This document shows positions 3,006 through 59,953 of a DNA stretch of 64,000 nucleotides, in pieces; within the stretch, counting starts at the first letter, position 1; each line of letters begins with the position of its first letter. Location: assembly GCA_964016885.1 (NCBI GenBank), contig OZ024751.1, forward strand, positions 35,526,001 through 35,590,000, in the 5' to 3' direction. The notes under the pieces were generated by a model that worked only from the letters and a program-made list of their open reading frames with translations, made no database searches and was not told where the DNA came from. The stretch comes from Eledone cirrhosa (Eukaryota). The position numbers were made by a program, and so were the translations under genes.

Positions 3006-3750
3006 CATATTCAGAGACGGCGTCTCCATATTTAGAGACGGCGTCTCCATATTCAGAGACGGCGTCTCCATATTTAGAGACGGCGTCTCCATATTTAGAG
3101 ACGGCGTCTCCATATTCAGAGACGGCGTCTCCATATTTAGAGACGACGTCTCCATATTTAGAGACGGCGTCTCCATATTTAGAGACGGCGTCTCCATATT
3201 TAGAGACGGCGTCTTCATATTTAGAGACGGCGTCTTCATATTTAGAGACGGCGTCTCCATATTTAGAGACGACGTCTCCATATTTAGAGACGGCGTCTCC
3301 ATATTTAGAGACGGCGTCTTCATATTTAGAGACGGCGTCTCCATATTTAGAGACGGCGTCTTCATATTTAGAGACGGCGTCTCCATATTTAGAGACGGCG
3401 TCTCCATATTTAGAGACGGCGTCTTCATATTTAGAGACGGCGTCTCCATATTTAGAGACGGCGACTCCATATTCAGAGACGACGTCTCCATATTTAGAGA
3501 CGGCGTCTCCATATTTAGAGACGGCGTCTCCATATTCAGAGACGACGTCTCCATATTTAGAGACGGCGTCTCCATATTTAGAGACGGCGTCTCCATATTT
3601 AGAGACGGCGTCTCCATATTTAGAGACGGCGTCTCCATATTTAGGGACGACGTCTCCATATTTAGAGACGGCGTCTCCATATTTAGGGACGACGTCTCCA
3701 TATTTAGAGACGGCGTCTCCATATTTAGATACGGCGTCTCCATATTTAGA
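3006..3750. repeat. 21-bp minisatellite with internal palindrome, ~35 copies
   Basis: Unit CATATTTAGAGACGGCGTCTC (contains GAGACG-G-CGTCTC); source of ORFs 2910-3761 and 2971-3768. Confidence 0.95.
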
Positions 3751-3948: not shown

Positions 3949-4024
3949 ATATATATATATATGACGCTAGTTGGGTTTGGAACCAGAGTGTTCCATCTAG
4001 TAGTAGTATAGGATATATAAGACA

Positions 4025-4145
4025 TAGGAAAAGAGTCAGGGCCCCGACGGCTGAGCTCCGGCCGTTTCGTTAGACTCGAACTAAGCCAGCAGTATTAGAA
4101 CGGCGGGAATGGTCCACCTGGTATCTTACCACACTTTCTTTGTTA
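4025..4145. mobile_element. Hairpin family H1, rearranged partial copy (putative Penelope-like remnant)
   Basis: TAGGAAAAGAGTCAGGGCCCCGACGGCTGAGCTC plus ...CTTACCACACTTTCTTTGTTA end, homologous to 4658-4854. Confidence 0.65.
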
Positions 4146-4372: not shown

Positions 4373-4638
4373 ATAGTATAAAAAAACTAAAAATCAGTGA
4401 TGCATCTGGACTCAGTTTATTGCGTGTTACAATTGTTTCGCTGGCAGGTTGCAAATTTTCTCAGTGAGAAAATTTGCTCCGAACGAACTGCCCGTGTCCG
4501 AAGGAACCTGCAGCCGTAGAATCAGCCAGATCCATACAGTGATCATGTCTCGAGTTGCCGGTAAACAATCGTAACACGCAATATATATATATATGTAAGT
4601 CCAGATACATCACTGATTTTTGTTTTTTTTTATACTAT
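4373..4638. mobile_element. Fold-back element next to (TA)n carrying a hammerhead 3' half
   Basis: Arms AAAAATCAGTGATGCATCTGGACT / AGTCCAGATACATCACTGATTTTT and TATTGCGTGTTACAATTGTTT / AAACAATCGTAACACGCAATA; minus strand reads GAAA-CAATTG-TA. Confidence 0.55.
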
Positions 4639-4657
4639 ATATATATATATATATATA

Positions 4658-4854
4658 TAACGAAGGAAATGTGGTAAGGAACCAGGTGGACCATAACGCA
4701 CCAAAGTACTCAATACTTAGGGTAGTAGAGTGGGTAATAGGAACGAGTAGGACCCCGACGGCTGAGCTCAAGCCGTTTCGACGGCTAATTCTGGACTCAG
4801 AATTAGCCGTCGAAACGGCTTGAGCTCAGCCGTCGGGGTCCTACTCGTTCCTAT
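4658..4854. mobile_element. Hairpin family H1 full copy (~195 bp, asymmetric fold-back, putative Penelope-like remnant)
   Basis: Perfect 57-bp inverted repeat 4737-4793 / 4798-4854 with GACT loop; arm contains GAAAC-GGC-TTGAGCTCA-GCC-GTC; flanked by (TA)n. Confidence 0.8.
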
Positions 4855-8195: not shown

Positions 8196-8646
<451 letters not shown>

Positions 8647-10450: not shown

Positions 10451-10644
10451 TAACAAAGAGGGTGTGGTAAGATAGGAGGTGGACCATAACGCACCAGAGT
10501 ACTCAATACTTAGGGTAGTAGAGTGGGTAATAGGAACGAGTAGGACCCCGACGGCTGAGCTCCGGCCGACAGATAGATCCGAACATGTTCGAATCTAGCT
10601 GTCGAAACGGTCGGAGCTCAGCCGTCGGGGTCCTGACTCTTTTC

Positions 10645-10647
<3 letters not shown>
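10451..10647. mobile_element. Hairpin family H1 copy with arms of two different subtypes
   Basis: Left arm TAGGAACGAGTAGGACCCC, right arm GGGGTCCTGACTCTTTTCCTA. Confidence 0.75.
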
Positions 10648-25181: not shown

Positions 25182-25359
25182 TAACGAAGGAGGTGTGGAA
25201 CAAGATGGACCATAACGCATCAGAGTACTCAATACTTAGGGTAGTAGAGTGTGTAATAGGAAAATGTTTGACCCTACGGCAGAGCTCAAGCCGTTTCGAC
25301 GGCTATAAATAGCCGTCGAAACGGCTTGAGCTCTGCCGTCGGGGTCAAACATTTTCCTA
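25182..25359. mobile_element. Hairpin family H1 copy
   Basis: TAACGAAGG...TAGGAAAATGTTTGACCC...GACGGCTA-TAAA-TAGCCGTC-GAAACGGC...GGGTCAAACATTTTCCTA in (TA)n. Confidence 0.8.
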
Positions 25360-53444: not shown

Positions 53445-53640
53445 TAGGAAAAGAGTCAGAACCCAGACGGCAGAGCTCAAGCCGTTTCGACAGCTATTTC
53501 TAGTCCAGAAATAGCTGTCGAAACGGCTTGAGCTCTGCCGTCGGGGTTCTGACTCTTTTCCTATTACCCACTCTACTACCCCAAGTATCGAGTACTCTGG
53601 TGCGTTATGGTCCATTTGGTTCCTTACCACACCTCCTTCG

Positions 53641-53643
<3 letters not shown>
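53445..53643. mobile_element. Hairpin family H1 copy
   Basis: TAGGAAAAGAGTCAGAACCC...GACAGCTATTTCT-AGTCC-AGAAATAGCTGTC-GAAACGGC...GGTTCTGACTCTTTTCCTA...CCTTCGTTA. Confidence 0.8.
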
Positions 53644-53977: not shown

Positions 53978-54177
53978 NNNNNNNNNNNNNNNNNNNNNNN
54001 NNNNNNNNNNNNNNNNNNNNNNNNNNNNNNNNNNNNNNNNNNNNNNNNNNNNNNNNNNNNNNNNNNNNNNNNNNNNNNNNNNNNNNNNNNNNNNNNNNNN
54101 NNNNNNNNNNNNNNNNNNNNNNNNNNNNNNNNNNNNNNNNNNNNNNNNNNNNNNNNNNNNNNNNNNNNNNNNNNNNN
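53978..54177. other. Assembly gap (200 N)
   Basis: Run of N. Confidence 1.
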
Positions 54178-58856: not shown

Positions 58857-59765
58857 AAACCTTCAGCCTTTATTTTTTAAATAAAAAGCCACACCCAAGT
58901 TATCAAATTTTCCATTAGAGGCCACCGAATGAAACATTGGAAACTTGTGTATCAAAGAGGCTATACACATCAATAATTTGAGCCACCTCCTTAACAGTAG
59001 GTGTAAATTACATGAAACTGATTGGCTATTGTGACTATAACAGATTCACATATCACCAACCCTCTCACCCAATATCAATGCAAAATAGCACCACTCATCA
59101 TCACCAACCCACGTCCTTTTCTCTCTTTCGAGTTAGGATATATATACACATATATGGAGAGAGAGCAAGAAACGATCATCTGATCTGGCTTGTCATACAA
59201 TGGGACAACTTGTCTAACCCCATGCTAGCAAGGAAAAATGGATGTTAAACAGTAATGATGATGATGATATATATGTGTGAATGTATATAATATATATGAT
59301 TACATCATAATGTAGATGCTGTAATTATTCATCATATCAATAGTTTAACCCCTGCCAACTCGGTGTTTGCTGCAAATCAAATATGAAGCAGTTCAATAAT
59401 CAATAATGATCAAATAATATAATATATGAACCAATATAATAACTGAGGTGCTACACTTTACTATATTATATGAGTATCTTATCAAATATCTTATATTGGG
59501 GTGCTGAGGTGGCTACTTTTTGTCATGGCACTGACATGACTACCTTACAGAGTGGACTGGGTGCTTTTTGTTGTCACCAGCACTACCACCCCAATGGGTT
59601 GACTGGTTGCTTTTTTTATGTTCCGCCATTATGACTACCTTACAGGGTGGACTGGGTACTTTTTTATCATGTCACCTGCACTACCTATATATATATATAC
59701 ATATATATAAAATAATTAAGTCAAATATGTAAAATTTGGCTTCATTTATTATAAATTATAGATAT

Positions 59766-59820
59766 ACTGCTATATATATTTCGGTGACAGCCATCATTGA
59801 CTGTGACCTCTTCAGGCAGT
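59766..59820 (-). ncRNA. Minimal type-I hammerhead ribozyme (best-preserved copy)
   Basis: Minus strand: ACTGC-CTGAAGA-GGTCACAGTCA-ATGA-TGGCTGTCACC-GAAA-TATATA-TA-GCAGT: 5-bp stem I, 11-nt stem II (one C-C mismatch), palindromic stem III, AUA cleavage triplet. Confidence 0.75.
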
Positions 59821-59953
59821 CCGAATTGGTGTGGAAAAGACAGGTACACATGTTGTTGAAGTGTGTTTTGCTCCGTCAATACATCGATATGTCCAGCTCC
59901 TGGTTGTGTTGTTATTTCTCTTAGGAACTGGAATCAAAATCTATATATATATA

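What the first reader, a model, noticed from the sequence alone, without database searches (positions are those of the whole stretch)
4658..4854. Family H1: six copies of an asymmetric fold-back element with its axis in the presumed hammerhead stem II
Seen: copies at 4025, 4658, 8274, 10451, 25182 and 53445. All share one end TAAC(G/A)AAG and a short arm that stops at TTCCTA, next to or near simple repeat. The arm reads GTC-GAAAC-GGC-TTGAGCTC(A/T)-GCC-GTC-GGGGT, which is hammerhead GAAA, stem III with a GAGCTC palindrome in its loop, and a GUC cleavage triplet. The CUGANGA half is missing from every copy and is replaced by the mirror arm. Inference: cDNA snaps back on the stem II hairpin and copies itself, giving a reproducible half-ribozyme hairpin. 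Alternatively the hairpin unit is itself a mobile non-autonomous family.
Basis: partly seen in the sequence, partly recalled or inferred. Interest (0 to 1): 0.75.

Follow-up and report, generated by a model that had tools for sequence, protein, structure and literature searches.

The report
Penelope hairpins stop inside their ribozyme
These 200-base hairpins are the shortest insertions of a Penelope-type jumping gene, and both halves stop at one spot inside its ribozyme-like motif, likely the start of its RNA, which suggests that each insertion is copied from both cut DNA ends and offers a test of how these elements move.

Summary
The six copies are real. H1 is the 3' end of a (TA)n-targeting Penelope-like element (PLE) with Hydra-clade motifs: RT plus GIY-YIG, 3.6-kb tandem unit. 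Uninverted parents exist, but their hammerhead core is UUGANAA or CUGAGAA, not CUGANGA, with stem I ACCCC/GGGGU. The axis is not stem II: 67 of 89 tail arms stop 2-16 nt into loop II, 0 of 89 at 17-52, and no full-loop snap-back was found. It is not a mobile unit or MITE: 48 of 52 short junctions differ. An extra C after GGACT (56 C, 9 T of 100) at an initiator-like TTAGTC/TCAGTC suggests a copied RNA cap. One-sided tails (55 of 66), longer non-tail arms (22 of 69) and three two-family chimeras favour two RNA-templated strands joined at their 3' ends. Against this, the 4658-type join is oriented 94:6, as snap-back predicts. RNA start and ribozyme activity are untested. The scan reported similar readings on other DNA of this genome.

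The parts
4658..4854 (.). Minimal fold-back insertion of a Hydra-type PLE in (TA)n
4658..4737 (-). 80-nt one-sided tail; in a tandem parent it continues into the next unit, 91 nt before the first ATG; inferred to lie between two RT start sites
   Evidence: PMC11167929
4738..4797 (-). Tail-bearing arm, 60 nt, from the inferred RNA +1 (A opposite T4797) to TTCCTA; carries the 3' half of the hammerhead-like motif
4794..4798 (+). Junction GACT|C: last templated bases of loop II plus a C that no parent has at this position (inferred copy of the cap G, or first base of the partner arm)
4798..4853 (+). Non-tail arm in RNA sense: stem II 3' strand TAGCCG 4804-4809, GAAA 4812-4815, stem III 4815-4819/4829-4833, predicted cleavage after C4834, stem I 3' strand GGGGT 4835-4839, end TTCCTA 4848-4853
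   Evidence: sequence; parent structure
4024..4145 (.). Internally deleted copy: non-tail arm 4024-4069, unassigned middle, tail remnant 4109-4145
8273..8525 (.). Probably compound copy: non-tail arm 8273-8334 ending GGACT+C, TA-containing spacer, tail arm 8401-8525 of another subfamily
10451..10647 (.). Diverged fold-back, tail on the left, different central sequence
25182..25359 (.). Fold-back, tail on the left, axis at the edge of the stem II 3' strand
53445..53643 (.). Fold-back, tail on the right, axis in loop II

Best explanation
H1 hairpins are independent, minimal insertions of a Penelope-like element, and they likely form when both ends of a cut in a TA repeat prime reverse transcription on the same capped element RNA, run off its 5' end inside hammerhead loop II, and are then joined head to head. 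Shown: the parent element, the shared stop zone, the one-sided tail, varied junctions and the excess of C. Inferred: (1) the RNA starts at the A of TTAGTC/TCAGTC (loop position 6), with a second start near position 10, so it carries only the 3' half of the ribozyme at its 5' end; (2) the two RT start sites lie 60 nt (TTCCTA) and 140 nt (TTCGTTA) downstream of that start, and using this 5'-proximal copy of them gives short cDNAs like retroviral strong-stop DNA, while using the copy at the far end of a tandem transcript gives the long class; (3) joining is ordered: the tail strand usually keeps its full end plus the cap-derived C and is extended on the other cDNA.
For: Parent: H1 arms are the 3' end of an RT + GIY-YIG element with inverted ends 0.4-3.8 kb apart; L134 is a tandem in which the tail runs into the next unit. 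Stop zone: 67 of 89 tail arms stop at loop II 2-16 (64 of them at 10 or less), 0 at 17-52, 22 run beyond 52. Arms are short or long together: 52/2/1/14, Fisher p=1e-11. Arms are of the same subfamily in 44 of 46 pairs. Cap sign, by hand tally of 100 listed of 8039: after GGACT, C 56, G 35 (9 are read-through), T 9; about 23 C against about 3 T remain after removing rows that the partner arm or a microhomology deletion could explain. C follows 6 of 87 stops at positions 2-5 and 7-10. L1 full-length insertions carry an extra cap G (PMC11702581, passage). Two strands: exactly one tail in 55 of 66 pairs against 33 expected, p=4e-8; non-tail arm reaches further in 22 of 69, by over 3 kb in L220; 14 against 15 among short pairs with both arms at 2 or more; T-runs at the inner end of the non-tail arm with no A-run on the tail arm (L140, L166); three fold-backs join an H1 arm to an arm of another hammerhead family (L031, L044, L050). 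A purified PLE protein cuts and extends both strands and starts RT at two internal RNA sites that bound the tail (PMC11167929).
Against: The exact 4658-type join is strongly oriented: the arm after GGACTC lacks the tail in 94 of 100 listed of 434 (hand tally; the upstream arm's tail is not shown there). This rejects symmetric joining and is what intramolecular snap-back predicts; my model needs the added assumption of ordered joining. Among 50 short pairs GGACT+C is on the tail arm in 6 and the non-tail arm in 1 (9 partners unclassified), so the clean cap sign is a minority. 25 of the 56 C rows could be the partner's own first base. In one search only C or T could be scored at position 6 (10 against 2), so the Fisher value overstates it. 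Stops spread over 2-16 rather than one base. Private variants are rarely mirrored (3 mirrored, 45 and 46 one-sided), so they say nothing on template. Chimeras and unequal arms could come from later deletions. The initiator consensus is recalled, not from a call. The pattern forces tail arms to reach position 2.
Confidence: 0.55

Rival explanations
1. Snap-back at the RNA end: one cDNA starts at the tail end, runs off the RNA 5' end in loop II, adds C, folds back on 1-3 bases and copies itself to TTCCTA, where it joins the TA repeat.
For: 94:6 orientation of the 4658-type join; +C mostly on tail arms; same subfamily on both arms; short-with-short coupling.
Against: Non-tail arm holds parent sequence that the tail arm lacks in 22 of 69; in 5 long elements the tail is on the shorter arm (L091-L094, L096); unmirrored T-runs; flipped joins exist (6 of 100; L104, L109, L127); two-family chimeras; no reason for a self-copy to stop at TTCCTA, whereas a second RT start explains it. 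It may still make a share of the shortest hairpins.
Confidence: 0.22
2. Same two-strand insertion, but the stop is an RT stall or an RNA break in the U-rich loop II just past stem II, not a capped start.
For: Spread of stops; A-runs after the UUU patch (16 of 17 stops at position 9 are followed by A); slip-back repeats at junctions.
Against: Does not explain C after position 6; independent stalling would not couple the two arms; the gap at 17-52 is sharp.
Confidence: 0.13
3. Short hairpins are longer inverted insertions that later collapsed by central deletion.
For: Long palindromes are unstable (established knowledge); deletions in arms are seen (L105-L111).
Against: Deletion gives no fixed stop zone, no gap at 17-52, no added C or A-runs; long inverted copies of the same subfamily persist.
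Confidence: 0.07
4. The 197-bp hairpin is itself a mobile non-autonomous unit (MITE or copied hairpin RNA).
For: 40 of 40 scored hits are 99-100% identical over the whole unit, on many contigs.
Against: That search ranks by identity. Unranked, 2 of 100 tail arms have this join, 48 of 52 short junctions are distinct, and the same join recurs in different subfamilies, so it is made repeatedly. Termini are not inverted repeats.
Confidence: 0.03

Closest known systems
Hydra clade of C-terminal EN+ Penelope-like elements, including Hydra-1_Obim (Craig et al. 2021, PMC8557442; section 11, passages and supplement hits read)
   Same: RT then GIY-YIG, RW(K/R), DKT, CxCX5C linker, CxxC and CxH, (TA)n targets, hammerhead in the terminal repeat, inverted truncated copy, tail at one end.
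   Different: Unit about 3.6 kb (clade generally under 3 kb); RWR in place of RWK; tail 80 nt against 30-40; core UUGANAA/CUGAGAA with a 32-nt loop II against ctgaagag and an 8-nt loop in Hydra-1_Obim; protein visibly homologous but not the same family (compared by eye). Three quarters of the sampled insertions are doubly truncated at one site.
Minimal PLE hammerheads, U3-A8 variant (Cervera and de la Pena 2014, PMC4209133; parts 1-2 of 4 read)
   Same: Type I motif in the pLTR, U3-A8 core, long helix II with a bulge, short helix I, palindromic loop III; the paper also notes pairs on opposite strands 100-700 bp apart.
   Different: 5-bp helix III, long loop II, about half of the 4658 subfamily has C3 with A8; H1 hairpins keep only the 3' half; activity untested.
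PAc (Poseidon of Anolis) in vitro mechanism (Frangieh et al. 2024, PMC11167929; parts 1-2 of 4 read)
   Same: Both strands cut and extended; two internal RT start sites bounding the tail; hammerhead cleavage not needed for insertion.
   Different: The paper reports no strand difference in start site and does not describe joined inverted products; H1 shows one-tail-per-element pairing and run-off inside the ribozyme.
L1 twin priming and cap-derived extra G (PMC11702581, passages read)
   Same: Second DNA end primes on the RNA; extra base from the cap at full-length 5' ends.
   Different: L1 twin priming inverts without duplicating; here both strands copy the same stretch, giving a palindrome.
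Metazoan non-LTR retrozymes (10.64898/2026.07.22.740005, part 1 of 5 read)
   Same: Small, non-coding, hammerhead-related PLE derivatives.
   Different: Retrozymes are head-to-tail arrays with whole ribozymes; H1 is a head-to-head single insertion with half of one and no sign of its own replication.

Membership tests
EN+ Penelope-like elements | ORF with PLE-type RT and GIY-YIG endonuclease | tested here: met
   Reading-frame pieces in L091, L092, L134, L135. Pfam is weak: GIY-YIG E=0.069 in 1 of 5 fragments, below cut-off, no RT hit. 7 longer homologues at E<=1e-20, none named as PLE. No intact ORF was found.
EN+ Penelope-like elements | Tandem pLTR, inverted truncated copy, one-sided tail | tested here: met
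   L134 tandem; inverted ends in 13 of 13 regions chosen for paired hits; one tail in 55 of 66 pairs.
Hydra clade | DKT, CxCX5C linker, CxxC and CxH motifs, no CCHH | tested here: met
   HSDKTG, CNCPDRSTC, CNLC, CKH; one Cys only inside the GIY-YIG core.
Hydra clade | RWK motif | tested here: inconclusive
   RLRWR in L092 and L134: conservative change.
Hydra clade | (TA)n insertion preference | tested here: met
   30 of 30 loci; most of the 90 by eye.
Hydra clade | Placement in the RT phylogeny | not tested
   No tree built; reference proteins were seen only in a supplement.
Type I hammerhead (parent element) | Core boxes, G10.1-C11.1, three helices, NUH site | tested here: met
   Core columns 46-64 of 70 conserved while N7 takes all four bases (7 of the 70 rows are hairpins, not parents); stems I-III can pair, -18.6 against MFE -25.7 kcal/mol. 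Rfam finds nothing at E<=10.
Type I hammerhead (parent element) | Compensatory changes in stems | tested here: inconclusive
   The 6-bp CGGCTA/TAGCCG core does not vary in the 40 rows beyond point changes, and the pattern fixed part of it; an apparent A/T covariation did not hold.
Type I hammerhead (parent element) | Self-cleavage | not testable with these tools
   Needs an in vitro assay, alone, as dimer and with protein.
Type I hammerhead (H1 hairpin itself) | 5' core box and stem I 5' strand | tested here: not met
   Absent from all six window copies.
MITE | Terminal inverted repeats and a fixed internal sequence | tested here: not met
   Ends differ by an 80-nt tail; centres vary.
MITE | Target-site duplication | tested here: inconclusive
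   Hidden by TA repeats on both sides.
Non-LTR retrozyme | Tandem units each with a whole hammerhead | tested here: not met
   Head-to-head single units with half a motif.

The most novel reading that the evidence does not exclude
PLEs of this clade make a retrovirus-like strong-stop cDNA: the promoter fires inside the hammerhead, so the RNA's 5' end carries half a ribozyme; both cut DNA ends prime on that one RNA at two fixed sites, the tail strand displacing the other; and tens of thousands of H1 hairpins are fossils of strong-stop pairs that were joined instead of transferring to the far pLTR. This would explain inverted repeats, one-sided tails and possibly pLTR regeneration in one scheme.
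Probability: 0.3. Interest if true: 0.75.

Novelty: new variant of a known kind. Interest (0 to 1): 0.5.

Why it matters
Craig et al. 2021 name the origin of PLE tandem/inverted structures and tails as unresolved, and the 2024 in vitro work leaves the later steps unvalidated. This family offers thousands of natural products with a narrow stop zone, a candidate cap signature and a one-tail rule, which give base-level predictions for the existing in vitro system. For annotation, such hairpins should be read as PLE insertions, not MITEs or microRNA-like stems. The element type, inverted copies and U3-A8 core are already in print; I did not find the run-off and paired-start reading in searches, which cover only the held library.

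Tried and rejected
CTGANGA parent search: 34 hits, mixed junctions and another family's sequence, no conserved parent among the 30 viewed. Parent holding the 4658 loop as its natural stem II: 8 hits, all deleted or duplicated hairpins. Full-loop stem II snap-backs: none among stored loci; the 6 pattern rows are 3 elements with junction inserts. Rfam on the window gave only sub-threshold hits in the 150 of 570 rows shown, and nothing on the parent motif. Neptune assignment, my first reading, dropped for Hydra. Stem II covariation, noted, withdrawn. Splice-acceptor reading of TTTAG in loop II rejected: most stops include the AG. Mirrored-mutation test uninformative. RNA data: no RNA holder listed; no reads were laid. 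One search had a coordinate bug and was replaced; one search had a miscounted gap. Rows dropped: of 100 listed matches, 91 were fetched in 90 loci, L184 was not recovered by the script and L210 was counted once (n=89); 19 had no partner found and 1 had a tailed partner; long-arm lengths are lower bounds because internal inversions cut the extension; L142, L144, L148 were removed because they had been chosen by tail; L207 and L212 (long spacers) were left out of the 50 short pairs.

Full report
Observation. The six copies are present at 4024-4145, 4658-4854, 8273-8525, 10451-10647, 25182-25359 and 53445-53643. At 4658 two 57-nt arms pair without mismatch round a 4-nt loop, and one arm continues into an 80-nt tail. 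Four copies are simple fold-backs; 4024 is internally deleted and 8273 is probably compound. The genome is 3.0 Gb; its microsatellite load suggests an octopus (my inference). All 40 scored hits to the unit are 99-100% identical, and the 30 fetched sit in TA repeats with the same two ends. Five elements in 200 kb of arbitrarily placed stretches give very roughly 75,000 in the genome; one subfamily alone has at least 4,886 tail arms.

Parent. A loop extension seen in two loci matched 945 places, many in facing pairs 0.4-3.8 kb apart. [quoted passage not shown] L134 is a tandem of about 3.6-kb units of a close subfamily (96-97% to the H1 arm) in which the tail runs into the next unit, 91 nt before the first ATG. 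Motifs DKT, CxCX5C, CxxC, CxH, no CCHH and (TA)n targeting match the Hydra clade of PLEs; RWK is RWR; no tree was built, no intact ORF was found, and Pfam support is weak. It is not Hydra-1_Obim by eye.

Ribozyme. Read-through copies show ACCCC, TTGANAAG, two bases, CGGCTA, a loop, TAGCCG, TC, GAAAC, stem III, GTC, GGGGT (40 rows). In rows not chosen on the core, it is TTGANAAG in 44 of 70 and CTGAGAA in 13 of 70, with N7 free. U3-A8 is a published PLE variant (PMC4209133). The 34 CTGANGA hits are junction noise or another family. Rfam does not detect the motif, covariation is not shown, and activity is untested.

Where the fold lies. I numbered loop II from the 3' strand of stem II; the 5' strand is at 33-41. 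Of 89 tail arms taken in genome order, 67 stop at 2-16, none at 17-52, and 22 run further. No stored locus shows a full-loop snap-back. So the axis is not the stem II hairpin. Junctions vary: 48 of 52 short ones are distinct, 2 of 100 listed equal 4658's, and that join recurs in several subfamilies, 434 times by one pattern. The hairpin is therefore made anew each time and is not a mobile unit.

Why there. After GGACT (position 6) parents have A or G. Among 100 listed of 8,039 arms with another base than A, I counted C 56, G 35 and T 9; about 23 C and 3 T remain after removing rows that the partner arm or a deletion could explain (by hand). C follows 6 of 87 stops at neighbouring positions. 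In sense, position 6 is the A of TTAGTC or TCAGTC and position 10 the A of TCATT, both like the invertebrate initiator (recalled). An extra cap-derived base marks full-length L1 ends (PMC11702581), and D. virilis Penelope is transcribed from within its pLTR (PMC2377424, passages). I infer a capped RNA start inside loop II, 60 and 140 nt upstream of the two element ends. Limits: stops are spread, 25 of the C rows could be the partner's base, and there is no RNA evidence.

One strand or two. For two RNA-templated strands: one tail in 55 of 66 pairs against 33 expected; the non-tail arm reaches further in 22 of 69, once by over 3 kb; short pairs split 14 to 15 once ascertainment is evened; T-runs at the inner end of the non-tail arm lack a mirror; three elements join an H1 arm to another family's arm. 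A PLE protein extends both strands from two internal RNA sites (PMC11167929). Coupled arm lengths (52/2/1/14) and matching subfamily (44 of 46) point to one RNA per insertion. Against: the 4658-type join has the tail on the following arm in only 6 of 100, and +C is on tail arms 6 times against once. That excludes symmetric joining and fits snap-back. An ordered scheme, with the tail strand finishing last and being extended on the other cDNA, fits both sets, but it was fitted after the fact.

Comparison and novelty. Inverted truncated copies, one-sided tails, TA targeting and hammerheads are described for PLEs (PMC8557442; PMC3846280, parts 2-3 of 5). The octopus repeat paper lists Penelope-like families but has no passage on hammerheads or palindromes (PMC13282606, passages). 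I found no account of run-off inside the ribozyme or of paired start sites in searches. Earlier notes of this scan on other DNA of the genome reach similar readings; they are unchecked AI notes and are not counted as support.

Verdict. PLE origin is close to certain (about 0.95); the full mechanism 0.55; interest 0.5.

Noticed in passing
L031, L044, L050 (left arms); L168, L219, L245; window 59707-59930: A second hammerhead family with a canonical CTGAAGA...GAAA core also makes fold-backs in (TA)n with a one-sided tail; three elements join one of its arms directly to an H1 arm, and one diverged arm lies in the window.
   Followed up: partly
L140, L161, L163, L214, L142 junctions: A-runs, AAAT stutters and short slip-back repeats of arm sequence at the inner ends, reminiscent of repeat addition by a telomerase-related RT at a template end.
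   Followed up: partly
parents of the 4658 subfamily, e.g. L141, L179, L220: About half carry CTGAGAA (C3 with A8) instead of TTGAGAA, which may be an inactive core, yet they inserted.
   Followed up: no
window 4390-4622: An unrelated element with about 23-bp inverted ends around a 200-bp interior that ends in a short TA run, just upstream of the finding.
   Followed up: no
window about 3100-3750: Tandem array of a 21-bp unit with an internal palindrome.
   Followed up: no
L032, L039, L043, L053 upstream of the H1 arm: Near-perfect 48-177 bp palindromes of other sequence directly abut a single H1 arm.
   Followed up: no
L134 (G000 C14:25.09 Mb) and L122/L123 (C14:25.39 Mb): Tandem near-full-length PLE array present twice 300 kb apart; one unit has lost stem III by deletion.
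   Followed up: partly
L034 upstream of 1500: A GIY-YIG fragment of a different PLE family, antisense to the adjoining non-tail H1 arm: possibly another two-family join.
   Followed up: no
window 53978-54177: 200-N assembly gap followed by about 550 bp of near-pure TA repeat.
   Followed up: no
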